Of a stretch of DNA of 22,642 bases, positions 1-22,432 are shown in pieces. Under the pieces are notes generated by a model, which saw nothing but the letters and a program-made list of their open reading frames with translations, was not told the DNA's origin and made no database searches. The DNA is from a virus (taxonomy: Duplodnaviria > Heunggongvirae > Uroviricota > Caudoviricetes): the IMG/VR virus record IMGVR_UViG_2778261067_000001; one strand, written 5' to 3'. The number at the start of each line of letters is the position of its first letter. The first letter of the stretch is position 1. Position numbers and translations under genes: made by a program.

Positions 1-2777
<2,777 letters not shown>

Positions 2778-2837: not shown

Positions 2838-3485
2838 TCAGCGACCAATCACCACAACCTGACCACCATCCCCTTCGTCTGCCGTGCTGATCTCCTGAGA
2901 AACCACCCGTGACCCCACGCGCATTTCACCGTACAGAACGGGCAGAACATTGCCCTGGGCAACCATGTTATCCAGTGAGGAGAAATACGTGTTCTGTTTG
3001 CCGTTATCCGTTGTCTGTGTACGGGGAGTTCTGGCTTTCGGTGCCAGCATCTGCGCCACACCGCCCAGGATCATACTGGCCCCTGCCGCATACATACCCG
3101 ATACAGCCGCGGCTCCCAGCCAGCCCACAGGGTTCCACCATGCCACAGCCATCAGCGCCGCCCCCAGCACCACCTGAAAAACACCGCCACTTTTGGCACC
3201 CGCCAGACGCGGTACGATGTGGATCACGGCACCATTTGCCAGCGGCTCATTAAGACGGGCAGATAATTCGTTTTCGCCTGCATCACGCCCGGCAATGCGC
3301 ACCTGATACCAGCCCTCATTCAGTTTCTGGCGAAACGACGGTAGCTGCGTGGCCAGCGCCCGGATAGCTTCGGCTCCCGTTTTCACACGAAGGTCGATAC
3401 GGCGGCCAAATCGTTGTAAATCCCCGTAAAGGCAGATGCGAGCCATGCCTGGTGACGCCAGAGGGAGTGTGTGCGTCGCTGCCAT
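2838..3485 (-). CDS. I: Tail assembly protein I
   Basis: 215-aa ORF; N-terminus MAATHTLPLASPGMARICLYGDLQRFGRRIDLRVKTGAEAIRALATQLP... and C-terminus ...GNVLPVLYGEMRVGSRVVSQEISTADEGDGGQVVVIGR match lambda gpI as I recall it; overlaps K by ~100 nt as in lambda. Confidence 0.9.
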   Translation of the reverse strand: MAATHTLPLASPGMARICLYGDLQRFGRRIDLRVKTGAEAIRALATQLPSFRQKLNEGWYQVRIAGRDAGENELSARLNEPLANGAVIHIVPRLAGAKSGGVFQVVLGAALMAVAWWNPVGWLGAAAVSGMYAAGASMILGGVAQMLAPKARTPRTQTTDNGKQNTYFSSLDNMVAQGNVLPVLYGEMRVGSRVVSQEISTADEGDGGQVVVIGR

Positions 3486-4135
3486 TTGTCGGTGTACCTC
3501 TCTCGTTTGCTCAGTTGTTCAGGAATATGGTGCAGCAGCTCGCCGTCACCACAGTAAATGGCGGCATGATTCGGCACCGATGAACCAAAACAGCACAGCA
3601 GCACATCGCCCGGCTGCGCCGCTGACAACGGCACCTGATACAGCCCCGTGGCCTCCAGATTATCCAGATAGAGATTCTGACCGTTACGCCACCAGTCATC
3701 CTCGCGATGAAAATCCGGCATCTCAATCCCCGCCAGATGGTAAGCATCCCGGAACAGCGTGTAACAGTCCGTCACCCCGTGCTCAAAGCGCCGCCCGGAA
3801 AGATGTGGCACACAGCGGAACTTGTGAATCGCCCCCCGGCAAACCAGCCACCACGGCAAATCACTCTGCACCTGCAGCCGCCGGTCGGTCTCACTCAGCC
3901 AGGGCAGACCACCGGGGTGGCTGTGGACCAGCGCCACAATCTCACCCTGCATCTCTGCCCGCAGCCAGTCCTCCGGCGACATCCGGAAATACTCCTCCGG
4001 CTCACCGGAGATATTCACGCAGGGAAAATATCTTTCCCCCTCCGGTGTTCTCACCACGAAGCCGCACGACTCCGCTGGCGCACATCGCCGGGCGTGCGCC
4101 AGAATCGCTGATTCTGTCTCTGTCATGGGATTCAC
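3383..4135 (-). CDS. K: Tail assembly protein K (JAMM/MPN plus NlpC/P60-like domains)
   Basis: 250-aa ORF MNPMTETESAILAHARRCAPAESCGFVV... with HSHPGG motif (JAMM-type) and C-terminal Cys/His region; near-identical to lambda gpK from memory. Confidence 0.9.
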   Translation of the reverse strand: MNPMTETESAILAHARRCAPAESCGFVVRTPEGERYFPCVNISGEPEEYFRMSPEDWLRAEMQGEIVALVHSHPGGLPWLSETDRRLQVQSDLPWWLVCRGAIHKFRCVPHLSGRRFEHGVTDCYTLFRDAYHLAGIEMPDFHREDDWWRNGQNLYLDNLEATGLYQVPLSAAQPGDVLLCCFGSSVPNHAAIYCGDGELLHHIPEQLSKRERYTDKWQRRTHSLWRHQAWLASAFTGIYNDLAAVSTFV

Positions 4136-4830
4136 TGCGAAAGTTTGTTAATGGAAAGGAAGCCGCCAAAGTTGCCGACGTTATTGCGGAACTTACAGCC
4201 ACTCAGGCATTTGCTGCATTTATCCTTCGTGATATCGGACGTCGGCTGGTCATATTCATCCGCGACCGCCGGACCGTGATAACCGCACTCATCACCGCGA
4301 TAGGTCCAGGTGCAGGTATTAGCCAGCATGATGCGCCCCGGAAAAACAGCACCGTCCGTTTCCGTCGGCGTGGACAGTACAAAAGAGGCACTGACCGCGC
4401 TCAGTTCGCTGCACTGCTCGATGCGCCAGCGGCTGATCACCTCCTGCTCCGGATCGGCGTCACTGTTTCCGTTGACGAAGTTCACCGCATCCAGAAAACG
4501 GGCGTAAACCTTACGCCTGACCACCGTTCCGCCGACCAGACTCTGCAGGTCTTCCGCCATCCCGGTGACCATTCCGTGCAGGTTAGAAACCGTCAGTGTC
4601 GGACGGGCAGCACTGCCCTTGCCGTTCAGTTCAAATCCCGTCCCCTGAATGGGGTATGCCTGATACTGCCGCCCCTGCCAGGTAACCGGCTCACCTTTTT
4701 CGTTCTGCTCATTACAGAAAAAATAACGTTCACCACCGACCTCTGTCAGATCGATTTCCCAGAGCACCACCTGGGCTGACTGAGTGAGGCGTGTCGTCTC
4801 ATGATGTGTTTCCTGTGGAATATCCTGCAT
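4132..4830 (-). CDS. L: Minor tail protein L
   Basis: 232-aa ORF MQDIPQETHHETTRLTQSAQVVLWEIDLTEVGGERYFFCNEQNEKGEPVTWQGRQYQ...; C-terminal Cys cluster (CSKCLSGCKF); lambda gpL-like; start overlaps K stop. Confidence 0.9.
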   Translation of the reverse strand: MQDIPQETHHETTRLTQSAQVVLWEIDLTEVGGERYFFCNEQNEKGEPVTWQGRQYQAYPIQGTGFELNGKGSAARPTLTVSNLHGMVTGMAEDLQSLVGGTVVRRKVYARFLDAVNFVNGNSDADPEQEVISRWRIEQCSELSAVSASFVLSTPTETDGAVFPGRIMLANTCTWTYRGDECGYHGPAVADEYDQPTSDITKDKCSKCLSGCKFRNNVGNFGGFLSINKLSQ

Positions 4831-4839
4831 CAGAGCCTC

Positions 4840-5169
4840 CTATGCCACGACCTGTTCAAAATCTGCCGTTATGGTTACCCACAGCGCCCCCACGCTTGCC
4901 GACCATTTACGACAAACCACCCTGATCGGTTTCCAGTCATAAGGTGGCGTCCACTGAAATGCACGGACGCCACCGTGCCGTTCCAGAAAGGCTTTTAAAG
5001 ATGGGTGTTCACATTTACGAACACGTATCGTCACGCTGTAAGTCGACAACTGGTTATTCAGTCCCGCCGCACGACGCTGTTCATAACCATCGCCCAGCTT
5101 CACTGTCACCACTTTCGGCTCTGATACCACATTCATATCCGGGCGCACTTTCCAGTGAAACGTCTCCAT
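4840..5169 (-). CDS. M: Minor tail protein M
   Basis: 109-aa ORF METFHWKVRPDMNVVSEPKVV...FEQVVA, lambda gpM-like; ATG overlaps the stop of H by 1 nt. Confidence 0.9.
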   Translation of the reverse strand: METFHWKVRPDMNVVSEPKVVTVKLGDGYEQRRAAGLNNQLSTYSVTIRVRKCEHPSLKAFLERHGGVRAFQWTPPYDWKPIRVVCRKWSASVGALWVTITADFEQVVA

Positions 5170-8100
5170 TACCGATATGCTCCACTTAACCGACCACCAT
5201 CACGGGCCTGCTGTTGCATAAAGTCCGCTGCCGCTTTTTTCCCGAGGTCATAAACCGCCTTCAGGGCAGCCGGACCTATCTGCCCGTTCGTGCCATCGTT
5301 ATTGATCTCGATGTTGTACTGCGGGGAAAACATCGCCATACCTGAACCCCCAATATCCGCCACAACCCCCAGCTTACCGTCAGCACCACGACGCAATGGC
5401 AGAATGGCTTCAGGTCCCGCTTCCCCCATCACACCCGCGCCTTTTGCAAAAGCAAAAAACGTCGGACGGTTAACCACCGTGCCACTGTAACGACTCAAAT
5501 CAGCAGACTGATAAATCCCCCCATTGGCATTCAGGGAAAGGCTGCTGAGATCAAATCCCAGTACACTGCCAATCCCTTTTATCGATTTCATCATGGTTGC
5601 CTGCGCCAGGATTTTCGCCATATCTGACAGCACAGAAGAGGTGAAGGATTTGAAATTGAGTTTGCCGGTAGTGACAAAAGTTGCCAGGCCATTTCCCATG
5701 TTGCTGAAGGCTGACGAGAACACCTGTTCTGCTGTTTCTGCCGTATTATCTGCATCCACGGTAAAATCCTGAAATGCACGCAGGACTCCGTTTTTCCAGT
5801 TACCCTGCACAACTTCAAGCTGTTGCCAGTAACGGCGATTCTCATTCAGTTGTCGGTTCAGGCTCTCCGTCAGCGCCTGCTCGGCCTTTCTGTAGTCATC
5901 CGTGTTATATGTCCCTTTCTGCTCACTATCCCGCCTCAACTGCTCCAGCTGTTGCTGGTATTTCTGGCGAAGACTCAGTTGTACCTGATATCGCTGTCGC
6001 TGCTGATCACCCATACCCACCGTGGCGATATCCAGGTCATGTTGCTGACGCTGAGCGCGCTCTTCTTCAGCCAGTTGACTGGTCAGCTGAATTGTTTTTT
6101 TCTTCAGCTCGTTGAGTGCCGTCTGTTTCTGAAGCTCCTGCTGTTTTACATCCAGCAGCGTCAGTGCCTGAATCAGTTCATCTTTACGGGCCAGCACACT
6201 CTTTTCATCTGCCGTCAGTTTTTTCCCGTCCAGGTCGCTGATGCGCTGCTGCAGAGCCAGAAGCTGTTTATGCGCTTCTGTCATCCTTTCCGTGGCAATG
6301 CCTGCTGACTGTCTGGCAGCAGAAATCTGTCCTTCCACCTGTGCCTGTTGCTGACTGTACTGCAGCAATAACCGGGTGGCCTCATCATTACGGGTTTCGC
6401 GTGTTTTTTTCTTACCGGATGCCAGGGCTTTCTCGTAACGTTCATTTTCACGTTGTATCGCCGCATCCCTGACAGCCTGATCGGCGTACTGCATGGCATT
6501 AATACGTGCAATTTCACGCTGATGTCGTGCAGCTTCCGTTTCATTCATACGGTTCAGTGCAGCATTTTCAGCATTACGGCGTTTCTGTTGCTCCTGATAA
6601 TTCCGCTCTGCCTGCTCTTTTGCATCCTGCAAATCCTTCTGGCGTTTTTTCTCCTGAAGATCGTTAAGACGCTGCTGATCGTATTCAACCTGAGAAGATG
6701 ATGCCGTCCAGGGGAGTCTTTTCGCCCGCGACACTTTCTCCTGCAAAGTGGCAATCTGCGCATCCAGCGAATCTTCACGACCAATATTCATGGCCGCATC
6801 CCAGAACTGCTTCCACCAGTCAGACAAAGTTTGCAGCGTACTGCCCAGCGCATTGAGGTTATTATCAATATCCGCAGTACGCCGACCGGTTTCCTCTGCC
6901 AGTGCAGACATGGCTATCCGTGCCGCATCACTGGACCGCCCCTGCTCTCCAAGGACGCGTATCTGCTCAAGCTGAGTGGCAGTAAGAAAATGCAGCTCAT
7001 TGTCCAGAGACTTCGCGGCATTTACAGGATCATCCTTCAGCCGCTTAAACTGATTTATGGTATCGCTGACCGACTGGCCAACCGATCGCTCCATCTGTGC
7101 GGCAGCTCTCGCCACCATACCGATATCGTTTCCACGAAATGCACCACTCCCCACCACCTGAGCCAGCGCACCGGCTGCAGCATGTTGCGTGATACCATTC
7201 CCGGAAATAGCACGACTGAGCGTCCACAGCTGCCCGGCAGTGACTCCGGCATAATGCCCCGTCAGCGACAGCTGGCGGTTAAATTCTTCCCCCTCCTTCT
7301 GACCGTCATACCAGGCTTTACCCAGACCATAGACGGCCGCGGTAATACCGCCAATAACCCCGCCCAGCATCATGCCTTTCGGTGACATCAGTGTGTCTAT
7401 CCATCCGGCACGGTTAGCCAGCGTTATCCCGGATCCCCTCAGCGCCCCTAAATTGCCGCGGGCCAGTTCACCTATCAGAACGCCTATCTCCTGGCGGGCC
7501 GCTGCACTTTTCAGACCCAGCGAATGCGTGGCTTTTCCTGCCCGCTCCATTTTGCGGATATACACTTCTGCAGCACTGCTTACCCCCAGCTGGGCAGCCC
7601 TGGCACGAAGCAACTCAGAAGAAGAAAGATTCTGGCGGGTTGCCTGCTCTTTAAGCTGACGGATAAACGCCACTTTCTGTCGGGTAGCCTCTGCCTCAGC
7701 CTGCGTAAGAACACGGGTTTTCGCCGTAACCTCAGAAATCAGCGCCAGATAATCCTGCTGACCAATCCCGCCACTGTTTCTGGCCTGTCGGATCTGCTGC
7801 TGAATACGCTGTAATTCCTGCAGCCCCGCACTGGCCTGTTTCACACTGTCAATCTGACGATAAAACGCAGCAGCCGCTTTATCCTGAGCCTCCGCCAGAG
7901 CCATGGCCTGCGCCTGTTCCTCGCGCATTTTCTGGCTCAGTGCCTCCATGCGCTGGCGGGTTTTCTCCACCTCGCGGGCCATGCGTTCATGAGCCTGTGC
8001 GTTCTTCTCCACCGTCTGCGCATGGACGGATGCGGCTGTTGCAGCCGAAGAAGCTGCCTGCGTTGTCTGCCGGGCGGCCTGAGTCTGACGCTCCATAAAA

Positions 8101-8234
8101 CGCTGCATACGGGCAGAAGACCGTTCTGCATCGCTGGCTGCACCATTCAGAAGGTTTTTGATACGGGGAATTTCATTTTTAAACTCTGCCGCATCAATCC
8201 CCAAATCAATGACCAGGTTGGCTATCTGGTCCAT
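5169..8234 (-). CDS. H: Tail tape measure protein (gpH-like), ~1021 aa from ATG at 8234
   Basis: Long coiled-coil-rich ORF; C-terminus ...IEINNDGTNGQIGPAALKAVYDLGKKAAADFMQQQARDGGRLSGAYR resembles the lambda gpH C-terminus. The track start at 8264 is a TTG; the ATG at 8234 (MDQIANLVIDLGIDAAEF...) has a GGAGGTG Shine-Dalgarno and aligns with the lambda H N-terminus. Confidence 0.9.
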   Translation of the reverse strand: MDQIANLVIDLGIDAAEFKNEIPRIKNLLNGAASDAERSSARMQRFMERQTQAARQTTQAASSAATAASVHAQTVEKNAQAHERMAREVEKTRQRMEALSQKMREEQAQAMALAEAQDKAAAAFYRQIDSVKQASAGLQELQRIQQQIRQARNSGGIGQQDYLALISEVTAKTRVLTQAEAEATRQKVAFIRQLKEQATRQNLSSSELLRARAAQLGVSSAAEVYIRKMERAGKATHSLGLKSAAARQEIGVLIGELARGNLGALRGSGITLANRAGWIDTLMSPKGMMLGGVIGGITAAVYGLGKAWYDGQKEGEEFNRQLSLTGHYAGVTAGQLWTLSRAISGNGITQHAAAGALAQVVGSGAFRGNDIGMVARAAAQMERSVGQSVSDTINQFKRLKDDPVNAAKSLDNELHFLTATQLEQIRVLGEQGRSSDAARIAMSALAEETGRRTADIDNNLNALGSTLQTLSDWWKQFWDAAMNIGREDSLDAQIATLQEKVSRAKRLPWTASSSQVEYDQQRLNDLQEKKRQKDLQDAKEQAERNYQEQQKRRNAENAALNRMNETEAARHQREIARINAMQYADQAVRDAAIQRENERYEKALASGKKKTRETRNDEATRLLLQYSQQQAQVEGQISAARQSAGIATERMTEAHKQLLALQQRISDLDGKKLTADEKSVLARKDELIQALTLLDVKQQELQKQTALNELKKKTIQLTSQLAEEERAQRQQHDLDIATVGMGDQQRQRYQVQLSLRQKYQQQLEQLRRDSEQKGTYNTDDYRKAEQALTESLNRQLNENRRYWQQLEVVQGNWKNGVLRAFQDFTVDADNTAETAEQVFSSAFSNMGNGLATFVTTGKLNFKSFTSSVLSDMAKILAQATMMKSIKGIGSVLGFDLSSLSLNANGGIYQSADLSRYSGTVVNRPTFFAFAKGAGVMGEAGPEAILPLRRGADGKLGVVADIGGSGMAMFSPQYNIEINNDGTNGQIGPAALKAVYDLGKKAAADFMQQQARDGGRLSGAYR

Positions 8235-8556
8235 AACGCACACCTCCGGAAATACCTTCCCCAAGATGCATCAGTTCTTCGTCCGTTCGCTCCGGTATCC
8301 CGTTCTCTTCCGGTAAAAGGCTGAAATCAGCCACCGCAGCATCACTGCTGCCGGACACCATTCTCACGATCAATGCCTTCAGCGAGGCAAACTGCGCATC
8401 CATCCACACATCACTGAAGCTCTGCATCCGGAAATAATCGCCCCACTCACCAAGCTCAGTGGCCGACATTTCCGACAGCATCCGCCGCCAGTCTGCCCGC
8501 CGGAACTCCCGGGCAAGCCGCATGACAAACTGCATTTCCCGCGTCAGGACTTTTCC
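8206..8556 (-). CDS. T: gpT portion of the G-T tail assembly chaperone, expressed by -1 programmed frameshift from G
   Basis: The -1 frame relative to G is open from 8568 down to the stop at 8206 (...GKVLTREMQFVMRLAREFRRADWRRMLSEMSATELGEWGDYFRMQSF...); it overlaps the last codons of G, the canonical G/T arrangement in lambda-like phages. Candidate slip site GGAAAAG at 8550-8556. Confidence 0.7.
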   Translation of the reverse strand, partial: GKVLTREMQFVMRLAREFRRADWRRMLSEMSATELGEWGDYFRMQSFSDVWMDAQFASLKALIVRMVSGSSDAAVADFSLLPEENGIPERTDEELMHLGEGISGGVRYGPDSQPGH

Positions 8557-8933
8557 GGCGTCAGCGCCTCATGCTCATCATCCACGGCATTATCAATGGC
8601 CCCCATACCGCTCAGCGACAGAACCATCTCCGCCCCCGCACCCAGGGCATCATACGACCATGTTGTAATAACGGATGCGCAAAGCGTCTCTACATCCTTA
8701 GACTGATCCGCATTCCACAGTGAGCGGGAAACCAGCCAGGCATTGATATCCATCCCCATCCGCAGAAAAGCAATCTGTCGTTCAGCCTCCGGCAGTTCTC
8801 CCTCCCCGGCATCAAACTTTGCCGTTCGCTGCTGAACAAACGTCAGATATTCAATTCTCTGCAGCCCGGACAGCTCACTGAGCACCACGGACTGTTTTTC
8901 ATAATTAAACGTGTCCTGTTTCAGAAACATCAT
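8544..8933 (-). CDS. G: Tail assembly chaperone G
   Basis: ORF MMFLKQDTFNYEKQSVVLSELSGLQRIEYLTFVQQRTAKFDAGE..., lambda gpG-like; ATG pair at 8933/8930 preceded by GGAG; the upstream part of the track ORF (to 8972) overlaps a terminator hairpin. Confidence 0.8.
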   Translation of the reverse strand: MMFLKQDTFNYEKQSVVLSELSGLQRIEYLTFVQQRTAKFDAGEGELPEAERQIAFLRMGMDINAWLVSRSLWNADQSKDVETLCASVITTWSYDALGAGAEMVLSLSGMGAIDNAVDDEHEALTPEKS

Positions 8934-11410: not shown

Positions 11411-13369
11411 TTACGCCGTACATTTCACCAGACCGCGGTGATCAACTGGCGCGACACCGGCGTCAATACGCACTTTCGTTGTCACGCCATCCACACTGAA
11501 GCCCTCCATCTGATCAATATATGGCGTATCCACACCGTTGAGATAAGCCACTTCAATCGTATCGGAGCCTTTTGACGCAGCCAGGTAGAAGGTGGTCTGG
11601 CTGTTATCATCAAGACGAGGCTCTGCAATAACGGTCGCAAAATCTTTCACCGGGTTAATAATACCGGCGTTAATGTCAGCCCCCTTGACACTTGAGGAGC
11701 GAATGACCTGGTTAGCAACAGACTCCATCGCCGTCGGTACCAGTACGAACGCAGGACGAATATTCAGATGACGCTCCCCCTCTTTCTGAACGCGCATCAA
11801 CTGGCGGGCTTTATCCAGCGATGCCACGTCCATTGCAGCGCTCTCCAGTACGTTTGCATGTTTCGCTTTATCGAACAGACTTACATTATCTGTGGAGATT
11901 TTCGGGTTAGACGTCAGAATGGCATAAACCAGATCGGCAATAGTGGATTTCGCCGCACGGCCCAGTTTCATCGGGACATCGGTCAGCATATTCAGATCAT
12001 CATTGATAATGGCCTGACGGGTGATACTGAACAGCTCGCCATAGGTCGCCAGTGCAATAGTGGCCTGTTTATCTCCGGTGGTGACGTATTTATATTCCGC
12101 CCCTTCACGCACCTGACGCAGAGCACTGAAGCCCCCCATACCCACACGATGGGCAATTTTAAAATCAGACAACTGACCTTTCCGCGTCCATTGTTCATAG
12201 GTTTCAGGAGCATCTTCCCAGCCCTGCAGAATGGCTTTGTTCGCAACATCCAGCAGAATATTACCGAAGTCAGACGTACTGTGGGTGAACGCCGCACCGA
12301 CCATCTGCATCGGGTTATAACCGGAAACCCCAATACCCCGTTCAGTCAGTGACATACGGGCATATTCACGCAGGGTCATCCCGTTGTAGACATTATCACG
12401 TTCGGTTTTTTCAAATCCGGCACGCGCCATCAGCGCCTGGCGGATCCCGTCCCCCACAAAATTACCGTTACCAGCATAAATATGAGCCGGTGTATTTTTA
12501 TTGGATGGCGTGGACTCGCGCCCCATCTCGTTCAACAGCTTTTCGCGGGCCTGCTCCAGCGAACACTCAGGATCGGCAAGACACTGAGCCTGCAGCGTCT
12601 GATAACGCCCGCCAAACATGGCAAACAGATCATTAATACCGTTTACACGCGCTTTTTGCTCTGCCAGTACCTGCGCACGGATACTGTTTTCATCCACCAC
12701 GGGTGCTGCTGCCTGCACTGGCGTCCGGGAGGCTGCAGGTTCATCATCCTGTACGCGTGGAGCACTGTTGCGTGGCGGAGTAATCATGTTTCGAATGGAT
12801 TCCGGCATCTTTTTAAATTCCTCTGTACGTTTTGACTGAATACATGCCATTGCCTTAACGGCTGGCGTCACCTGATCAGCAAATCCATGTGCCAGACATT
12901 CGGCACCGGACATCCAGGTCTCATCCGCCAGCATGGCAGCAATTTCATCGGTGGTTTTCCCGGTTTTCTGTGCATAAGCGGGTAACAGAACCGCCTCAAC
13001 CTTATCGAGCAGGTCGGCATAGGTGCGCATGTCCTCCGCATCACCGCCCGTAAAGCCAAATGGTTTATGAATCATCATGAAGGTGTTTTCCGGCATAATG
13101 ACCGGGTTTCCCACCATCGCAATGACCGACGCCATTGACGCCGCCACACCGTCGACATAAACGGTAATGGACGCACCATGTGTTTTCAGCGCATTAAAAA
13201 TGGCGATGCCTTCAAAGACATCGCCACCCGGTGAATTGATATGGAGATTAATGTGGGTGATATCGCCCAGTGCATTCAGATCACTGATAAACTGCTTCGC
13301 TGTAACACCCCAGAAACCAATCTCGTCATAAATATAAATATCCGCGTCACTCTGGTGACCAGCCTGCAT
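11411..13369 (-). CDS. Prohead protease (ClpP/S14-like) fused to major capsid protein, ~652 aa from ATG at 13369
   Basis: N-terminal region has ClpP hallmarks: INSPGG, Ser nucleophile context GVAASMASV and His context MIHKPFGFTGG; the C-terminal ~400 aa is capsid-like. The track ORF extends to 13630 but overlaps the portal gene; ATG at 13369 lies 14 nt after the portal stop. Start is uncertain. Confidence 0.8.
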   Translation of the reverse strand: MQAGHQSDADIYIYDEIGFWGVTAKQFISDLNALGDITHINLHINSPGGDVFEGIAIFNALKTHGASITVYVDGVAASMASVIAMVGNPVIMPENTFMMIHKPFGFTGGDAEDMRTYADLLDKVEAVLLPAYAQKTGKTTDEIAAMLADETWMSGAECLAHGFADQVTPAVKAMACIQSKRTEEFKKMPESIRNMITPPRNSAPRVQDDEPAASRTPVQAAAPVVDENSIRAQVLAEQKARVNGINDLFAMFGGRYQTLQAQCLADPECSLEQAREKLLNEMGRESTPSNKNTPAHIYAGNGNFVGDGIRQALMARAGFEKTERDNVYNGMTLREYARMSLTERGIGVSGYNPMQMVGAAFTHSTSDFGNILLDVANKAILQGWEDAPETYEQWTRKGQLSDFKIAHRVGMGGFSALRQVREGAEYKYVTTGDKQATIALATYGELFSITRQAIINDDLNMLTDVPMKLGRAAKSTIADLVYAILTSNPKISTDNVSLFDKAKHANVLESAAMDVASLDKARQLMRVQKEGERHLNIRPAFVLVPTAMESVANQVIRSSSVKGADINAGIINPVKDFATVIAEPRLDDNSQTTFYLAASKGSDTIEVAYLNGVDTPYIDQMEGFSVDGVTTKVRIDAGVAPVDHRGLVKCTA

Positions 13370-13382
13370 CCTGAACCAGGAA

Positions 13383-14891
13383 TTATTCTTCGGACTGGTC
13401 GTCGGTGTGCTGCGGCTCCTGTCGTTTCGTTGCGGCACTGCTGCCTCCTTTATCACTGGCCGGATCGGTATCAAATACCAGATCCAGCTTGCGGTTTTCA
13501 TCAATTTCTGCCTTGCGCCGACGTTTGACATCATCCGGATTACGACCACCTGCACGTACCCAGTCTGATTCTGTCGCCGCTCCACCACGAATCTGAATTT
13601 TCCAGGCCTCAGCCTCCTTAACAGGGTCAATCCACGGCATCACCGGTCCGGAATACACCGCGGTATACAGTGAAGAACGGTCAAGATCGCGGGGTAGCCT
13701 GATAACACCGGATGCCACAGCCTGTTTCAGCCAGGCACGATACATCGGGCGGGTGACGGCACCAATAAACCAGTCCTGCAGGATCAGGTAGCCATCAGTG
13801 GATTCAACCAGCTCCTGACGCTGGGCGCTGTAAGTGCCGTTATAGTTGCGCGCTGTACTGGAAAAACTCAGACGACTGCCCGCCGCCACGGCACGCAACT
13901 GACCATTACGAAAAGTTTCAAGGTTAGGATTGGGGCGATCCGACTTCACCATTCCGATTTCTTCGCCGGGTTTCAGATCGTCGTAAATAATGCCTGGCTG
14001 AATGGTAAGCTCGCGTTCATTCTCCTTGCTGTCATTACCATCCGTTTCATAGCTCTGTCCGTCGCCTTTGCGGATGTACATCCCCAGAGCAGCAGCGATC
14101 CTTGCTGCAGTCAGCTCAGAATCTTCATATTCTTTCAGGGCACTGAGGCGGATCAGCACACCGGACAATAAAGACGTCCCGCGCATCTGGTGCAGACGGC
14201 GAACAAATTTAAGATGCAGCATTCGCTCTGCATCCACTTCTTTGGTTTCCATCTGCCGTCCGGATACAGGACGACTTTTATACACCAGATATTTTTCGGG
14301 ACGCCCCCAGTCATCAACAAACACGCCCTGATTCAGCCTGTTGCTCTCATCACTGGTCATGGGAATAAAGTCTGGCTCGAGTGCCTCCAGCCAGAAATGA
14401 ACACCGGCAGAAGGCGTCAGGCTGTTTATGCGCCCGGAAACCATCTGGGCAAACACCTCACCATCGCGCAGCCAAGTACGCAGCATCAGACGTTCCAGCA
14501 TCGGACGGGTAAACTGCCCGGTAACTTCCGGACTGACAGACCATTCACTCCATCGGGTGCGTATCTCCGCTGCCAGATCACGGGCAATGGCCCCATTGCG
14601 TAATACCGGATGTGGCTCGACAATAATCCCGTTTTTCCCCACCACCCGTTCTTCCAGCTTGTCAAATACACCAATGACCAGATCGTGGTTGTTATCAAGG
14701 TAACGGGCCTGCTCACGTAACGACACGGCCCCGTAGAGGCTTAACTGGTCGGCAGTTCGGTTTTCCCGCCGGGCTTTGTGTGTCCGCGTCGTTTTTACGG
14801 CCTCATAAGCCTGGATCACCGCCCGGGAACGCAGCCTTGCCGCTTTCCATCCTGGTGAAAAAACGCCAATCACATCATCAAGAATTGCCAT
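13383..14891 (-). CDS. B: Portal protein (lambda gpB family)
   Basis: ORF of ~500 aa directly downstream of the gpW-like gene; ATG at 14891 (MAILDDVIGVFSPGWKAARLRS...) overlaps the W stop (TGATG); size, position and acidic C-terminus fit a portal. Confidence 0.85.
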   Translation of the reverse strand: MAILDDVIGVFSPGWKAARLRSRAVIQAYEAVKTTRTHKARRENRTADQLSLYGAVSLREQARYLDNNHDLVIGVFDKLEERVVGKNGIIVEPHPVLRNGAIARDLAAEIRTRWSEWSVSPEVTGQFTRPMLERLMLRTWLRDGEVFAQMVSGRINSLTPSAGVHFWLEALEPDFIPMTSDESNRLNQGVFVDDWGRPEKYLVYKSRPVSGRQMETKEVDAERMLHLKFVRRLHQMRGTSLLSGVLIRLSALKEYEDSELTAARIAAALGMYIRKGDGQSYETDGNDSKENERELTIQPGIIYDDLKPGEEIGMVKSDRPNPNLETFRNGQLRAVAAGSRLSFSSTARNYNGTYSAQRQELVESTDGYLILQDWFIGAVTRPMYRAWLKQAVASGVIRLPRDLDRSSLYTAVYSGPVMPWIDPVKEAEAWKIQIRGGAATESDWVRAGGRNPDDVKRRRKAEIDENRKLDLVFDTDPASDKGGSSAATKRQEPQHTDDQSEE

Positions 14892-17985: not shown

Positions 17986-18119
17986 GATGAGCATCTGATA
18001 CAGCGCTTTACATAATGGCATAGGAATAATTCAGAAGGACATCACAGCATGCCCACACAAATTAGTGTGAGTGTCCTGTTTCTTCCTACGCACAGGACTG
18101 ACGAGCATGAGGGGAAAAT

Positions 18120-18287
18120 ATGCGAACCATAAATGCCTCATCTTCAGCAATGCAACCGGCATCCGAACAGGACGATATTGTAAATTCACCTAATTACGAG
18201 GACATTGCAGTAGTTGAATTGCAGCTCTGTATTAGCCTGACAGTGACAGAATGCGATATTGACTCTGTCACAGGTGAAATAGTTTGA
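18120..18287 (+). CDS. Hypothetical small acidic protein, 55 aa (below the ORF-track size threshold)
   Basis: ATG at 18120 preceded by GAGGGG; translation MRTINASSSAMQPASEQDDIVNSPNYEDIAVVELQLCISLTVTECDIDSVTGEIV; no homology recognised; could be non-coding. Confidence 0.25.
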   Translation: MRTINASSSAMQPASEQDDIVNSPNYEDIAVVELQLCISLTVTECDIDSVTGEIV

Positions 18288-18307
18288 ATGATTAGCAGTT
18301 ATGGTGC

Positions 18308-18514
18308 TCAGTCAACCACCAGGGAATAATCCTTCGAATTCTTATCGTGCTTCACCAACGCTGCCTCAATTGCCCTGAATGCTTCCAGAGACACCTGATG
18401 TTCTATACATGCAATTACAACATCCGGGTAACTCATAGAAATGGTGCTATTAAGCATATTTTTTACACGAATCAGATCCAACGAGAGTTCATCAGCAGAT
18501 TGTTCTTTATTCAT
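18308..18514 (-). CDS. ybcW: Small prophage protein of unknown function, YbcW-like (68 aa)
   Basis: 68-aa [71 protein letters not shown]; resembles from memory the E. coli K-12 DLP12 protein YbcW, which also lies next to a terminase small-subunit gene. Confidence 0.6.
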
Positions 18515-18814
18515 TTTGTCGCTCCATGCGTTTGCTCGTCATCTAGCGGTTAAAATATTACTTCAAATCTTACTGCATAAAAGAGGAAAAGTATGAAAGT
18601 TTGAGTACATCGACCTTACATACATCTGTCGGTTGCATATCCCTCCTGGATGCCAGCAAGGCTCAATTTTGTTACGCAATCAACACTATTCATCAAAAAC
18701 AGGCTTAATATTTGACATAAATCATCAACAAAACACAAAGAGGTCAGACCAGATTGAAACAATAAACACGATAATGCTAACTACGCGCCATCGTATCACA
18801 TGGAAGGTTTACCA

Positions 18815-19225
18815 ATGGCTCAGGCTGCCATTTTTAAAGAAATATTCGATCAAGTGCGTAAAGATTTAAACTGTGAATTATTTTATTCTGAGCTAAAACG
18901 TCACAATGTCTCACTTTATATTTACTATTTAGCCACAGATAATATTCACATTGTGTTAGAAAACGACAACATAGTGTTAGTAAAAGGACTCAAAAAGGTT
19001 GTAAATGTTAAATTCTCCAGAAACAAGCATCTTATAGAGACCTCCTATAATAAGTTGAAATCAAAAGAAATCACATTTCAACAATATAGGGAAAATCTTG
19101 CTAAAGCAGGAGTTTTCCGATGGGTTACAAATATCCAGGAACACCAAAGATATTACTATGCCTTTGATAACTCATTACTATTTACTGAAAGCATCCAGAA
19201 AACTACACAGATCTTACCACGCTAA
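18815..19225 (+). CDS. ydfO: DUF1398 family protein (YdfO/YbcV-like), unknown function
   Basis: [54 protein letters not shown]...[39 protein letters not shown]; ATG at 18815 has GGAAGG 7 nt upstream (alternative ATG 18800); the only convincing plus-strand gene in the window. Confidence 0.65.
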
Positions 19226-19321
19226 ACCATAACGTCCGGCTTCTCTCACTCCTGAGCCGGACTGCATTGGTTTAATAAAAACCATCAACAATTGTGATTT
19301 AGATATTCGGAACCATTCAAA

Positions 19322-19347
19322 TATAACAAAACCCCGTAAAAACGAGG
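19322..19347 (-). terminator. Terminator-like hairpin downstream of the gnsB-like gene
   Basis: Minus-strand RNA CCUCG UUUUUA CGGGG followed by UUUUGUUAU (one G-U pair in the stem). Confidence 0.45.
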
Positions 19348-19376
19348 TTTATGGATAAATTTTATTATTGAATACA

Positions 19377-19553
19377 TCAGATTAAATTAATCTTGACATC
19401 ATAGCTTTCAAGACCCGTCATTTTTTCCCGTGCGGTAAACTGAATACTGGTAACTTCTTTCCCGGTCTTTTTCTTAAGTTCAATAATTTTTTTTGTTATA
19501 TATTCAGAAATATCTGCTTCTGCTTTTGTTTTTAAGTTTTCAATATTCATCAT
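19377..19553 (-). CDS. gnsB: GnsB-like small protein (Gns family), 58 aa
   Basis: Not in the ORF track (under 60 aa). Minus-strand translation MMNIENLKTKAEADISEYITKKIIELKKKTGKEVTSIQFTAREKMTGLESYDVKINLI; ATG preceded by AAGAGGAA; closely resembles E. coli GnsA/GnsB as I recall them (...TGKEVSEIRFTAREKMTGLESYDVKIKIM). Confidence 0.7.
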   Translation of the reverse strand: MMNIENLKTKAEADISEYITKKIIELKKKTGKEVTSIQFTAREKMTGLESYDVKINLI

Positions 19554-19721
19554 TTCCTCTTTTAGTCTGTTATGACTTTCCAGTTACACAGTAAGTCGAT
19601 TATATGGTGCAAACGTGTAAAAGATAAGATGAAACATCGCAATAATCAACATACGATAGTCTAAATTTTACACAAACAGACAAAGAGAATTTTCCTGAAT
19701 TATCAATACAATAGCATCAAA

Positions 19722-19994
19722 TCAACTCAAGAGCCTTATTGCTGCTTCCAGAATTTCTTCTGAAGTAACATGTCGATCCGCGGCTACATAAATGACTTTA
19801 TGATCTCCGGTCAGAGATGGAAACCCTGCGGCCATTACAGTAAGGTGTGTTTTTTCGCCATTTGGATATTCACGCATGATGGTGTTAACTCCAGTCATCG
19901 CTGGCACTACCACTGCTGGTTCAGAGTTAAAAAAAACTATGATTTTTTTCATGATGTTACCGTAGTATGTGAGTATCCATCGAATAGATACCAA
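19722..19994 (-). CDS. Hypothetical small protein (76-90 aa) between the cspI-like and gnsB-like genes; by synteny possibly the counterpart of Qin ynfN
   Basis: Track ORF begins at a TTG (19994) preceded by GGGAG; internal ATG at 19952 gives MKKIIVFFNSEPAVVVPAMTGVNTIMREYPNGEKTHLTVMAAGFPSLTGDHKVIYVAADRHVTSEEILEAAIRLLS. No recognised motifs; start and reality uncertain. Confidence 0.4.
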   Translation of the reverse strand: MVSIRWILTYYGNIMKKIIVFFNSEPAVVVPAMTGVNTIMREYPNGEKTHLTVMAAGFPSLTGDHKVIYVAADRHVTSEEILEAAIRLLS

Positions 19995-20016
19995 GCAAAA
20001 AAGCTCCCGAAGGAGC
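19995..20016 (-). terminator. Rho-independent terminator (GCUCC UUCG GGAGC + U6) downstream of the cspI-like gene
   Basis: Perfect 5-bp GC-rich stem with UUCG tetraloop followed by UUUUUUG on the minus strand. Confidence 0.6.
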
Positions 20017-20223
20017 CTTCATTTTCACTTTTTTAAATCCAACGACAGACGGCTGGCATTTAAGTATTGTGAAATATTATCAAATGTAATCATCATTGAT
20101 TTACAAAAGATACATTTTGCCCCGAAAGGATTCATGTCAGAAACATCAAAAGATGATGTTCTATACTGGGAACCATGACAACACGGGCATCTAAAGTGAA
20201 TATGGTTTGTAATATTGTCTACC

Positions 20224-20436
20224 TCAAAGCGCCACTACATGAACAGCGGCAGGACCTTTAGGTCCGTTCTCAATACCAAATTCAACTTCCTGATTCTCAG
20301 TTAATGTTTTGAAATCGTTGCTCTGAATTGCTGAGAAATGGACAAACACATCTTTGCTGCCATCTTTCGGCGTGATGAAACCAAAACCTTTTTCAGGGTT
20401 AAACCATTTCACTAAACCAGTCATTTTGTTAGACAT
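20224..20436 (-). CDS. cspI: Cold-shock protein, CspA family (CspI-like)
   Basis: 70-aa [73 protein letters not shown] with RNP1 (KGFGFI) and RNP2 (VFVHF) motifs. Confidence 0.92.
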
Positions 20437-20620
20437 AATTATTACCTTTTGAAGAAATTAGCCCTTGGGCAGAATGGTCCGAAAAAAAATATCAGAGAGA
20501 AAAACCAACAAGGAAATCTCAAGAGGTACAAATAATAAAATTATAACAATGACTGCTTCAGATAAATTTGTAACAAACCAGAACACCATTAACGCATGAT
20601 TAACCACCCATAGCAAGGAT
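20437..20620 (-). promoter_or_regulatory. Putative long AT-rich 5' UTR / promoter region of the cspI-like gene
   Basis: ~360-bp AT-rich non-coding gap upstream of cspI; CspA-family genes characteristically have ~150-nt regulatory leaders (established knowledge); boundaries not determinable from sequence alone. Confidence 0.35.
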
Positions 20621-20798
20621 TACTTTTGTAAAGAAAAACACAGCAATGAAAGAATAGCTTTATTTATTAATAAAACGTGTCATTCTGATTAAGACCTTTT
20701 ATCTTACCCTTAAGATTTCAGGAATTTTGGCTCATGGAAGAGTCCTTTTTATTTAAATTTTACATTCCGCGATGTAAATGTTCCGATTTAATATTACC

Positions 20799-21822
<1,024 letters not shown>

Positions 21823-21826
<4 letters not shown>

Positions 21827-22134
21827 ATATATTTATGATGAGGACGCTCGTGCTTATTGGCAGGATTTTCAATCTTAAAGGAGTACTGATGCTGCAGATA
21901 AGACTCAACTTTTTCTGACAATTTTTCTGCTACTTCCAGGAAGACTTGCCGGACGCTCCTTCTGGCTGCTGCCTCATAAAACTCCAGCGCAGCTCCTTCA
22001 ACACGGTCCATGGCGACATCCAGGTCAAAAATTTCACCGTCAAAGCGTTCCTTGTCCTGTAAGGCTACAGTTACCGTAACTTTATTCTCAAAATTACGGA
22101 CTCCTTTCACAACCAGTTCATAGTCTTGAGTCAT
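21823..22134 (-). CDS. ydfR: DUF1327-family protein (YdfR-like) inserted between holin and endolysin
   Basis: 103-aa ORF MTQDYELVVKGVRNFENKVTVTVALQDKERFDGEIFDLDVAMDRVEGAALEFYEAAARRSV...; GAGGAGAG Shine-Dalgarno; position matches ydfR in the K-12 Qin lysis cassette. Confidence 0.7.
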
Positions 22135-22138
22135 TGGA

Positions 22139-22354
22139 TTACTCTCCTCTCGCAGCCTTACGCCTGTCTTCTTTAATCTTGAAATAAAGATTTGTCAGAT
22201 ACGTCAGCAGGCCAAAAACCAGGCTACCCAGCACACCGATTGCAGCCCACTGTGACGGAGTTACTTTATCGAGTAACTGTAATGCCCAGAAACCAGCATT
22301 ACCCGCCGATGTGCCATAGGCAACACCTGTTGTTAACTTATCCATTGATTTCAT
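22139..22354 (-). CDS. S: Pinholin (phage 21 S / EssD-EssQ family), 71 aa with dual-start motif
   Basis: ATG at 22354 gives [71 protein letters not shown]; two TM segments and a charged C-terminus; Met1-Lys-Ser-Met4 dual start as in S21 (longer form antiholin, shorter form holin); the track ORF start at 22432 is upstream read-through. Confidence 0.9.
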
Positions 22355-22432
22355 ATCCTCACCCCGATGTACACGGATGGTGCAATATGTTTGAAAAAGA
22401 TCGGAGTCTACGGGGTAGTTTTGACAGCACAC

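What the first reader, a model, noticed from the sequence alone, without database searches (positions are those of the whole stretch)
5169..8234. Tape measure protein ~170 aa longer than lambda gpH, with lambda-like similarity confined to the C-terminus
The ORF encodes ~1021 aa against my recollection of ~853 aa for lambda H. Tape measure length scales with tail length (established for lambda), so this phage is predicted to have a tail roughly 20% longer than lambda's. The C-terminal ~50 aa resemble lambda H closely while the remainder does not, and M, L, K and I downstream look near-identical to lambda, suggesting a recombination junction near the 3' end of H.
Basis: partly seen in the sequence, partly recalled or inferred. 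Interest (0 to 1): 0.4.

Follow-up and report, generated by a model that had tools for sequence, protein, structure and literature searches.

The report
Known long tape measure gene
This is an ordinary, already catalogued tail tape measure gene of a common E. coli prophage type (mEp460/cdtI/Tritos); it is 168 residues longer than lambda's, but published microscopy of a near-identical phage shows a tail only about 4% longer, and the real join to lambda-like sequence lies in gene L, not at the end of H.

Summary
The ORF is real: window 5169-8234, minus strand, 1021 aa, a lambda-family tape measure protein (TMP), 168 aa longer than lambda H (853 aa). Almost all the extra length is one roughly 170-aa Ala/Gln/Arg/Glu-rich block (aa 57-227) between a conserved N-terminus and the TMP_2 domain.

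- Similarity to lambda H is weak (19-34% by segment) but detectable over most of the protein. The last 50 aa are 64% identical, including a 20-aa identical motif.
- M is not near-identical to lambda (55.6% aa, 60% nt). L and K are (93%, 96%); I is 79%.
- The main mosaic junction is at codon 20/21 of L (window 4770/4771). G, T, H and M are closest to Salmonella Fels-1/Gifsy-2. A 45-60 nt lambda-like patch does sit in the 3' end of H.
- The "20% longer tail" prediction is not borne out. Phage Tritos (TMP 1021 aa, 98% identical) has a 163.5 nm tail; Perceval (TMP 853 aa, 99% lambda H) measured 156.8 nm in the same study.

The gene is annotated in at least 16 phage records, and 1826 of 5426 complete E. 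coli genomes hold most of it. Verdict: already known, low interest.

The parts
5169..8234 (-). Tail length tape measure protein gene (lambda H homologue), 1021 aa
   Evidence: ORF. Pfam TMP_2, TMP_4 and Tape_meas_lam_C above cut-offs. TIGR01541 at 284 bits against a cut-off of 105. 97.7-98.5% identical to the annotated TMPs of Tritos, Ayreon and mEp460_ev081.
8067..8234 (-). Conserved N-terminal segment (aa 1-56), homologous to the lambda H N-terminus; fixes the start codon
   Evidence: blastp aligns aa 2-56 with lambda 3-57, 32.7%, E 4e-8; phmmer domain 1 against 8iyk_H; GGAGG 8 nt upstream of the ATG at 8234.
7554..8066 (-). Extra block (aa 57-227) that accounts for nearly all of the 168-aa excess over lambda H; A/Q/R/E-rich, almost free of Gly/Pro, predicted helical
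   Evidence: Domain offsets: TMP_2 at aa 228-426 here against 54-256 in lambda. Alignment gaps. Composition and G+P counts, no internal duplication. AF2 secondary structure gives helices 18-153 and 159-201, but at low confidence. The block is present in the Fels-1 and Gifsy-2 TMPs.
6957..7553 (-). TMP_2 domain (aa 228-426), including the hydrophobic segment at aa 287-305
   Evidence: Pfam PF06791, E 4.7e-49; hydropathy scan.
5580..5804 (-). Tape_meas_lam_C domain (aa 811-885)
   Evidence: Pfam PF09718, E 4.7e-22; lambda equivalent at aa 627-701.
5247..5306 (-). 20-codon patch identical in protein to lambda H 809-828 (55/60 nt). Its core, 5257-5286, is 97% nt identical to lambda but 77% to Fels-1 and 53% to Gifsy-2.
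   Evidence: the motif is conserved but variable in other lambdoid TMPs.
5184..5279 (-). Predicted C-terminal helix (aa 986-1017), equivalent to lambda gpH 818-849, which forms the three-helix coil seated on the gpI tripod in the tail tip
   Evidence: Alignment offset of 168; AF2 helix 988-1009; lambda structures described in PMC10721106 and PMC12617516; phmmer hit to the 32-aa TMP fragment 9e7m_Ha.
4840..5169 (-). M (distal tail protein) gene, 109 aa; not lambda-like (55.6% aa), closest to Fels-1 (68.5%)
   Evidence: Always found with this TMP in 14 phage records.
4132..4830 (-). L gene, 232 aa. The main mosaic junction with lambda lies at 4770/4771 (codon 20/21): upstream about 65% nt identity, downstream 93-97%.
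   Evidence: (base-by-base alignment).
3383..4135 (-). K gene (JAB + NlpC/P60), 96% identical to lambda K over the 199 aa annotated in lambda
2838..3485 (-). I gene, 215 aa. The N-terminal and C-terminal parts are lambda-like; there is a divergent patch at codons ~64-139 (window ~3069-3296).
1..2777 (-). 5' 2.8 kb of J (central tail fibre), about 95% nt identical to lambda; runs off the window
8544..8930 (-). G (tail assembly chaperone) gene
   Evidence: Pfam Phage_TAC_2, E 3.7e-40.
8206..8535 (-). T reading frame (the -1 frame relative to G); overlaps the start of H by 29 nt
   Evidence: Pfam Phage_tail_T; the frame is open from upstream of the heptamer.
8550..8556 (-). Putative G-T -1 frameshift heptamer G_GAA_AAG
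   Evidence: Read directly from the sequence. Lambda has G_GGA_AAG at the equivalent place. Function is inferred.

Best explanation
Window 5169-8234 (minus strand) encodes the tail tape measure protein of a lambdoid prophage of the mEp460/cdtI/Tritos/Ayreon type. The protein sits in the canonical order Z-U-V-G-T-H-M-L-K-I-J. By homology with lambda gpH, it is held by the G and G-T chaperones while the V tube polymerises around it. Its C-terminal helix docks in the tip on the gpI tripod, and it is expelled at infection.

Its 168-aa excess over lambda H is almost entirely one helical block (aa 57-227) near the N-terminus. This block is ancestral to the Fels-1/Gifsy-2/cdtI lineage of TMPs and is missing from lambda H.

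The tail module is a mosaic. G, T, H, M and the first 20 codons of L belong to the Fels-1/Gifsy-like lineage. L from codon 21, K, most of I, and J are lambda-type (93-97% nt). A separate 45-60 nt lambda-type patch lies within the tip-docking C-terminus of H.

The tail is expected to be only slightly longer than lambda's, roughly 160-165 nm against 150-157 nm, not 20% longer. This follows published measurements on a phage whose TMP is 98% identical and of equal length.

Shown here: the sequence anatomy, the homologies and the breakpoints. Taken from the literature: the tail lengths and the lambda tip structure. Inferred: the assembly mechanism, the frameshift and tip docking in this particular phage.
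For: - Gene identity: Pfam TMP_2, TMP_4 and Tape_meas_lam_C; TIGR01541 at 284 bits; phmmer to the lambda TMP chain 8iyk_H, E 1.8e-48; flanking G, T, M, L, K and I families.
- Known allele: 94.7-98.5% identity over the full length to the annotated TMPs of cdtI (1018 aa), Tritos, Ayreon and mEp460_ev081 (all 1021 aa). 1826 of 5426 complete E. coli genomes hold at least 80% of the gene.
- Location of the extra length: domain offsets, alignment, and the Fels-1 (1053 aa) and Gifsy-2 TMPs, which share the block. Non-lambda siphophage TMPs align from aa ~179-190 onward.
- Mosaic: sliding nt identity and base-level alignment; a gene-by-gene identity table against lambda, Fels-1 and Gifsy-2. Fels-1 and Gifsy-2 carry morons exactly between M and L.
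- Tail length: Tritos 163.5 +/- 2.4 nm against Perceval 156.8 +/- 5.3 nm. The proxies were verified by sequence.
- Tip docking: lambda gpH 818-849 sits on gpI 134-223. The C-terminal domain of I here is 90-100% nt identical to lambda.
Against: - No experiment was done on this prophage itself; the tail length is extrapolated from Tritos and Ayreon.
- The TEM values are negative-stain measurements with no stated particle numbers, and Ayreon's 120 nm is a rough figure.
- The AF2 model is low confidence (mean pLDDT 46.8), so 'helical block' rests mainly on composition.
- The frameshift heptamer G_GAA_AAG is non-canonical.
- Whether the lambda-like patch in H reflects gene conversion or unusually strong constraint cannot be settled on about 14 synonymous sites.
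Confidence: 0.85

Rival explanations
1. One reading: tail length is strictly proportional to TMP length, so this phage makes a tail about 20% (about 25 nm, about 6 V rings) longer than lambda's.
For: Within one phage, in-frame deletions and duplications of the TMP change tail length by about 0.145-0.15 nm per residue. [quoted passage not shown] The extra block is nearly free of Gly/Pro and is predicted helical, so it could in principle add about 25 nm.
Against: In the same laboratory and study, Tritos (TMP 1021 aa) measured 163.5 +/- 2.4 nm and Perceval (TMP 853 aa) 156.8 +/- 5.3 nm, a difference of 6.7 nm. The proxies are 98-99% identical to the window TMP and to lambda H respectively. Ayreon (1021 aa) was reported at about 120 nm. 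In TP901-1 about 127 terminal residues do not contribute to length, so comparisons between lineages need not be proportional.
Confidence: 0.1
2. The lambda-identical 20-aa stretch near the C-terminus of H reflects only purifying selection on a tip-docking motif, with no recombination in H at all.
For: The motif I(N/Q)NDGxNGxIGP...RDGGxxSG recurs in lambdoid TMPs of 853-1080 aa. It overlaps the helix that docks on gpI in lambda. All five nt differences in the 60-nt patch are synonymous.
Against: The motif varies within both lineages. Fels-1 has 4 aa changes, Gifsy-2 is largely different, and lambda-like YDC107 has 6 changes. The 30-nt core is 97% identical to lambda but 77% to Fels-1 and 53% to Gifsy-2, whereas the flanks show the opposite ranking. 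pS in the patch is 0.35, against 0.6-0.8 in the flanks.
Confidence: 0.3
3. The true protein is shorter or longer than 1021 aa because translation starts elsewhere: at the TTG at 8264 (giving 1031 aa) or at an internal start.
For: The mechanical ORF list extends to a TTG at 8264.
Against: The first 56 aa from the ATG at 8234 align with the lambda H and Fels-1 N-termini. A GGAGG lies 8 nt upstream of that ATG. Independent annotations of Tritos and Ayreon use the same start and give 1021 aa; cdtI is annotated at 1018 aa.
Confidence: 0.03

Closest known systems
Tape measure proteins of Escherichia phages Tritos (OV696610), Ayreon (MF807953), mEp460 / mEp460_ev081 (NC_019716, LR597641) and cdtI (NC_009514)
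   Same: Same gene in the same context. Identity is 94.7-98.5% aa over the full length, and the length is the same (1021 aa; cdtI 1018 aa). M and L are 100% and 99.6% identical to Tritos, V 99.2%. The Gifsy-2-like head genes are also shared.
   Different: Only point substitutions (23 of 1021 against Tritos). The window is a different prophage copy; its best TMP DNA match is 99.9% in E. coli strain 2A.
Bacteriophage lambda gpH (853 aa; PDB 8IYK/8IYL/8K35)
   Same: Same family and domain order: N-terminal segment, TMP_2, central coil, Tape_meas_lam_C / TIGR01541, then the C-terminal tip-docking helix. Same position between T and M. A 20-aa C-terminal motif is identical.
   Different: Only about 26-28% identical overall. 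Lambda lacks the ~170-aa block at aa 57-227. Lambda has a 21-aa Gly-rich stretch, in the region where gpH is cleaved to gpH*, that is absent here. The window protein has a GEAGPEAILPL motif that lambda lacks.
Tape measure proteins of Salmonella prophages Fels-1 (1053 aa) and Gifsy-2 (annotated 995 aa)
   Same: Closest relatives outside E. coli: 59-64% aa identity along the whole length, including the N-terminal block. G, T and M are also closest to these phages.
   Different: Fels-1 and Gifsy-2 have their own L, K and I (63-77% identical) and carry morons (lom; lom plus sodC) between M and L. The window instead has lambda-type L-K-I-J directly after M.

Membership tests
Lambda-family tail tape measure protein (Pfam TMP_2 + Tape_meas_lam_C; NCBIfam TIGR01541) | Profile matches above the curated cut-offs | tested here: met
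   PF06791 167 bits (cut-off 30.2); PF09718 78 bits (cut-off 23); TIGR01541 284 bits (cut-off 104.75).
Lambda-family tail tape measure protein (Pfam TMP_2 + Tape_meas_lam_C; NCBIfam TIGR01541) | Gene position: immediately downstream of the G/T chaperone pair and upstream of M-L-K-I-J | tested here: met
   G 8544-8930, T 8206-8535, H 5169-8234, M 4840-5169, L, K, I and J follow, all on the minus strand, each with its Pfam family.
Lambda-family tail tape measure protein (Pfam TMP_2 + Tape_meas_lam_C; NCBIfam TIGR01541) | Long, predominantly alpha-helical protein | tested here: inconclusive
   The AF2 single-sequence model is helical over aa 18-880, but its mean pLDDT is 46.8. Low Gly/Pro content over aa 50-250 and 450-850 is consistent with helix.
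Lambda-family tail tape measure protein (Pfam TMP_2 + Tape_meas_lam_C; NCBIfam TIGR01541) | C-terminal helix that docks on the gpI trimer in the tail tip (lambda gpH 818-849) | tested here: met
   Met at sequence level only. Window aa 977-1021 aligns without gaps to lambda 809-853 at 71% identity; AF2 predicts a helix at 988-1009; there is a hit to the 32-aa TMP fragment 9e7m_Ha. Physical docking was not tested.
Lambda-family tail tape measure protein (Pfam TMP_2 + Tape_meas_lam_C; NCBIfam TIGR01541) | Acts as a ruler: tail length follows TMP length | not testable with these tools
   Only literature proxies are available: Tritos 163.5 nm against Perceval 156.8 nm. No deletion series exists for this allele.
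Lambda-family tail tape measure protein (Pfam TMP_2 + Tape_meas_lam_C; NCBIfam TIGR01541) | Partner chaperone made by a programmed -1 frameshift (G-T) | tested here: inconclusive
   T is in the -1 frame and that frame is open across the heptamer G_GAA_AAG, 4 nt before the G stop. The heptamer departs from the X_XXY_YYZ pattern, and no expression data exist.
mEp460/cdtI/Tritos-type TMP allele | Near-identity over the full length and the same flanking M allele | tested here: met
   97.7-98.5% aa identity to Tritos, Ayreon and mEp460_ev081, and 94.7% to cdtI. The segment spanning the H 3' end, M and the L 5' end is 98.5-99.6% nt identical in 14 phage records.

The most novel reading that the evidence does not exclude
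The ~170-aa N-terminal helical block of this TMP lineage may not act as ruler. In the one available same-laboratory comparison, 168 extra residues add only about 7 nm (about 1.5 V rings) instead of about 25 nm. That would mean part of the TMP is folded back, lies in the neck or connector, or serves another role such as DNA-end handling or the trans-envelope channel. The 0.15 nm per residue rule would then fail between natural lambdoid alleles that share the same tip.
Probability: 0.2. Interest if true: 0.35.

Novelty: already known. Interest (0 to 1): 0.1.

Why it matters
It matters little as a discovery. The gene, its length and its phage group are already in the databases, and the tail of a near-identical phage has been measured.

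The useful outcome is corrective in two ways. First, the mosaic boundary between the Gifsy/Fels-like and lambda-like tail modules lies in the first 60 nt of L. This is the same M|L position where Fels-1 and Gifsy-2 carry morons. Second, the simple 'TMP residues x 0.15 nm' extrapolation from lambda over-predicts the tail length of this allele by about 18 nm. That is a caution for anyone predicting virion morphology from prophage sequence.

Tried and rejected
- Internal duplication as the origin of the extra block: self-blastp of aa 57-228 against the whole protein gave only weak coiled-coil-type matches (E >= 0.015), and Tandem Repeats Finder found nothing in 5000-8600. Rejected.
- Alternative TTG start at 8264: rejected on N-terminal homology, the Shine-Dalgarno sequence and database annotations.
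- Plus-strand ORFs overlapping the TMP gene (for example 5774-6115, 5823-6308, 6831-7385): no evidence that they are genes. They are antisense to a well-supported coding region and were not pursued.
- Chi-site enrichment: one site against 1.03 expected. Nothing there.
- AF2 single-sequence model: too low in confidence (pLDDT 46.8) to say whether the N-terminal block folds back. Only its secondary structure was used, and no fold search was run.
- Tail-length figures for cdtI (PMC1964815, not held) and phi458 (TEM shown but no length given): nothing usable.
- The large protein-database searches (search for homologous proteins, the search of protein representatives) were not run, because the phage, PDB and E. 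coli collections already answered the question.
Full report
**1. What is at the coordinates**

All tail genes in the window lie on the minus strand. The ORF at 5169-8234 (minus) starts at ATG and encodes 1021 aa. The mechanical ORF list extends it to a TTG at 8264. Three things support the ATG at 8234:
- a GGAGG lies 8 nt upstream;
- the first 56 aa align with the N-terminus of lambda H (32.7%, E 4e-8) and with Fels-1;
- Tritos and Ayreon are annotated with the same start, giving 1021 aa.

Pfam finds TMP_2 (aa 228-426), TMP_4 (616-693) and Tape_meas_lam_C (811-885). NCBIfam finds TIGR01541 (656-981, 284 bits). The best solved-structure match is the lambda tape measure chain 8iyk_H (E 1.8e-48). 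The neighbouring genes are Z, U, V, G and T upstream and M, L, K, I and J downstream, each with its expected family. The ORF is therefore the tape measure gene.

**2. Where the extra length is**

| Feature | Window (aa) | Lambda (aa) |
|---|---|---|
| TMP_2 | 228-426 | 54-256 |
| Tape_meas_lam_C | 811-885 | 627-701 |
| TIGR01541 | 656-981 | 472-813 |

About 174 of the 168 net extra residues therefore lie in one block, between the conserved N-terminal ~56 aa and TMP_2 (aa 57-227, window nt 7554-8066). Small gains and losses elsewhere cancel out: +14 in the central coil and -16 after lam_C. The -16 includes the absence of lambda's 21-aa Gly-rich stretch.

The block is rich in Ala, Gln, Arg and Glu and almost free of Gly/Pro. 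It is not an internal duplication. A low-confidence AF2 model (mean pLDDT 46.8) draws it as helices 18-153 and 159-201. The block is present in the TMPs of Salmonella prophages Fels-1 (1053 aa, 59% identical) and Gifsy-2 (64%). TMPs of unrelated siphophages align from aa ~179-190 onward. Lambda H looks like the shortened form.

Lambdoid TMPs in the phage collection range from 853 to 1080 aa, so 1021 aa is unremarkable.

**3. Similarity to lambda along H**

| Segment | Identity to lambda H (aligned residues) |
|---|---|
| N-terminus (aa 1-56) | 34% |
| TMP_2 | 27% |
| Central coil | 19-27% |
| Tape_meas_lam_C | 27% |
| Loop region (aa 886-976) | 30% |
| aa 977-996 | 100% (20/20) |
| Last 25 aa | 48% |
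| Last 50 aa | 64% |

**4. The mosaic junction**

Protein identities (%) of the window genes to three phages:

| Gene | Lambda | Fels-1 | Gifsy-2 |
|---|---|---|---|
| Z | 50 | not compared | not compared |
| U | 54 | not compared | not compared |
| V | 55 | not compared | not compared |
| G | 32 | 55 | 57 |
| T | 38 | 66 | 52 |
| H | 26 | 59 | 64 |
| M | 55.6 | 69 | 61 |
| L | 93.1 | 71 | 66 |
| K | 96.0 | 77 | 75 |
| I | 78.9 | 64 | 64 |

Lambda values are; Fels-1 and Gifsy-2 values. G, T, H and M are closer to Fels-1/Gifsy-2, whereas L, K and I are closer to lambda.

- A 60-nt sliding profile and the base-level alignment place the step to >90% nt identity at window 4770/4771 (lambda 13488/13489). 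This is codon 20/21 of L.
- M is 60% identical in nt, with saturated synonymous divergence (dS about 1.6). L downstream of codon 25 has dS 0.26 and K has dS 0.15.
- Fels-1 and Gifsy-2 carry morons (lom; lom plus sodC) exactly between M and L, so this boundary is a recurrent exchange point.
- The segment spanning the H 3' end, M and the L 5' end occurs at 98.5-99.6% identity in 14 phage records, and always with this TMP.
- I has a second divergent patch (codons ~64-139). Its C-terminal domain is 90-100% nt identical to lambda.

**5. The lambda-like patch inside H**

Window 5247-5306 matches lambda at 55 of 60 nt, and all five differences are synonymous. The core, 5257-5286, is 97% identical to lambda, 77% to Fels-1 and 53% to Gifsy-2. 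On both flanks the ranking is reversed: 40-57% to lambda against 70-83% to Fels-1.

The motif is conserved across the family, but it varies within both lineages. In lambda, residues 818-849 form the three-helix coil that sits on the gpI tripod in the tip (PMC10721106, PMC12617516).

I read the patch as a short conversion tract in a tip-docking motif, possibly favoured because the tip partners here are lambda-type. Pure constraint cannot be excluded on about 14 synonymous sites. It is not the main junction.

**6. Tail length**

The rule of about 0.145-0.15 nm per residue is established within single phages: lambda, TM4 and TP901-1. It would predict about +25 nm here.

A natural test already exists. 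In one study (PMC9928086) Tritos tails measured 163.5 +/- 2.4 nm and Perceval tails 156.8 +/- 5.3 nm. I checked both proxies by sequence:
- The Tritos TMP is 1021 aa and 998/1021 identical to the window's. Its V, M and L are 99.2%, 100% and 99.6% identical.
- The Perceval TMP is 853 aa and 843/853 identical to lambda H. Its V, M and L are 98.8-100% identical to lambda.

The difference is 6.7 nm (about 4%), or about 1.5 V rings, given that lambda has 32 rings. Ayreon (TMP 1021 aa, 97.9% identical) was reported with tails of about 120 nm, a rough value but not a long one.

In TP901-1 about 127 terminal residues do not count toward length, so non-proportionality between lineages is plausible. The number of particles measured is not stated, so the exact increment is soft. 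Even so, +20% is not supported.

**7. How common it is**

- At least 80% of this gene is present in 1826 of 5426 complete E. coli genomes, where it is annotated 'phage tail tape measure protein'. The lambda-type H is in 3694.
- In the phage collection, 16 records carry it at >=90% protein identity.
- The whole window is 96-98% nt identical to Tritos, cdtI, mEp460, HannyBb and Ayreon from cos to J.

**8. Verdict**

This is a correctly spotted but ordinary gene. The length observation is right. The junction is misplaced by about 480 nt because M was misjudged. The tail-length inference is contradicted by existing measurements.

The only mildly interesting residue is that roughly 120 of the 168 extra residues appear not to add tail length. 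That would need a controlled experiment.

Noticed in passing
window 3383-4135 (-); L001 (lambda) 14126-14875: The K ORF here is about 247-250 aa, with a complete JAB domain followed by NlpC/P60. In the lambda reference the 150 nt upstream of the annotated 199-aa K are about 95% identical in nt but out of frame with a stop, which implies a 1-nt indel difference (an alignment gap near window 3974-4033).
   Followed up: partly
window 8550-8556 (-): The likely G-T -1 frameshift site is G_GAA_AAG, 4 nt before the G stop. It departs from the canonical X_XXY_YYZ pattern and from lambda's G_GGA_AAG. The T frame is open across it.
   Followed up: partly
window 5580-5500 region (TMP aa ~886-976) vs lambda H 702-808: The window TMP lacks lambda's 21-aa Gly-rich stretch, in the region where gpH is cleaved to gpH*. 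It carries a GEAGPEAILPL motif that lambda lacks but Fels-1 and Gifsy-2 share. Whether this TMP is processed like lambda H is unknown.
   Followed up: no
L011 (Fels-1) 5025-5543; L012 (Gifsy-2) 5006-6168: Fels-1 and Gifsy-2 carry morons (lom; lom plus sodC) inserted exactly between M and L. This is the same position as the Gifsy-like/lambda-like junction in the window.
   Followed up: partly
window ~3069-3296 (-), gene I codons ~64-139: A second mosaic patch lies inside I (29-76% nt identity to lambda), flanked by sequence 86-100% identical. The C-terminal, gpH-binding domain of I is lambda-type.
   Followed up: partly
window 11411-13630 (-): A single 739-aa ORF fuses a ClpP-type protease domain (aa 95-255) to a major capsid protein domain (aa 441-736). 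This is the Gifsy-2-type head arrangement, unlike lambda's C/Nu3/D/E genes.
   Followed up: partly
window ~18000-20800: A low-GC island (34-38% against ~55% in the structural genes) lies between the lysis genes and cos/terminase. It holds a plus-strand DUF1398 gene (18800-19225) and a CspA-like cold-shock gene (20224-20436, minus). These are probable morons.
   Followed up: no
window 20799-22432 (-): Lysis cassette: P21-type holin (22139-22432), DUF1327 (21823-22134), a phage lysozyme with an apparently hydrophobic N-terminal stretch (not analysed further) (21293-21826), and DUF2514 (20799-21296) with an embedded ORF in another frame (20849-21121); their position after the lysozyme gene suggests Rz/Rz1-type spanin genes, which was not tested. 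Together with cos at ~17931, this shows the window spans the joined ends of a prophage.
   Followed up: no
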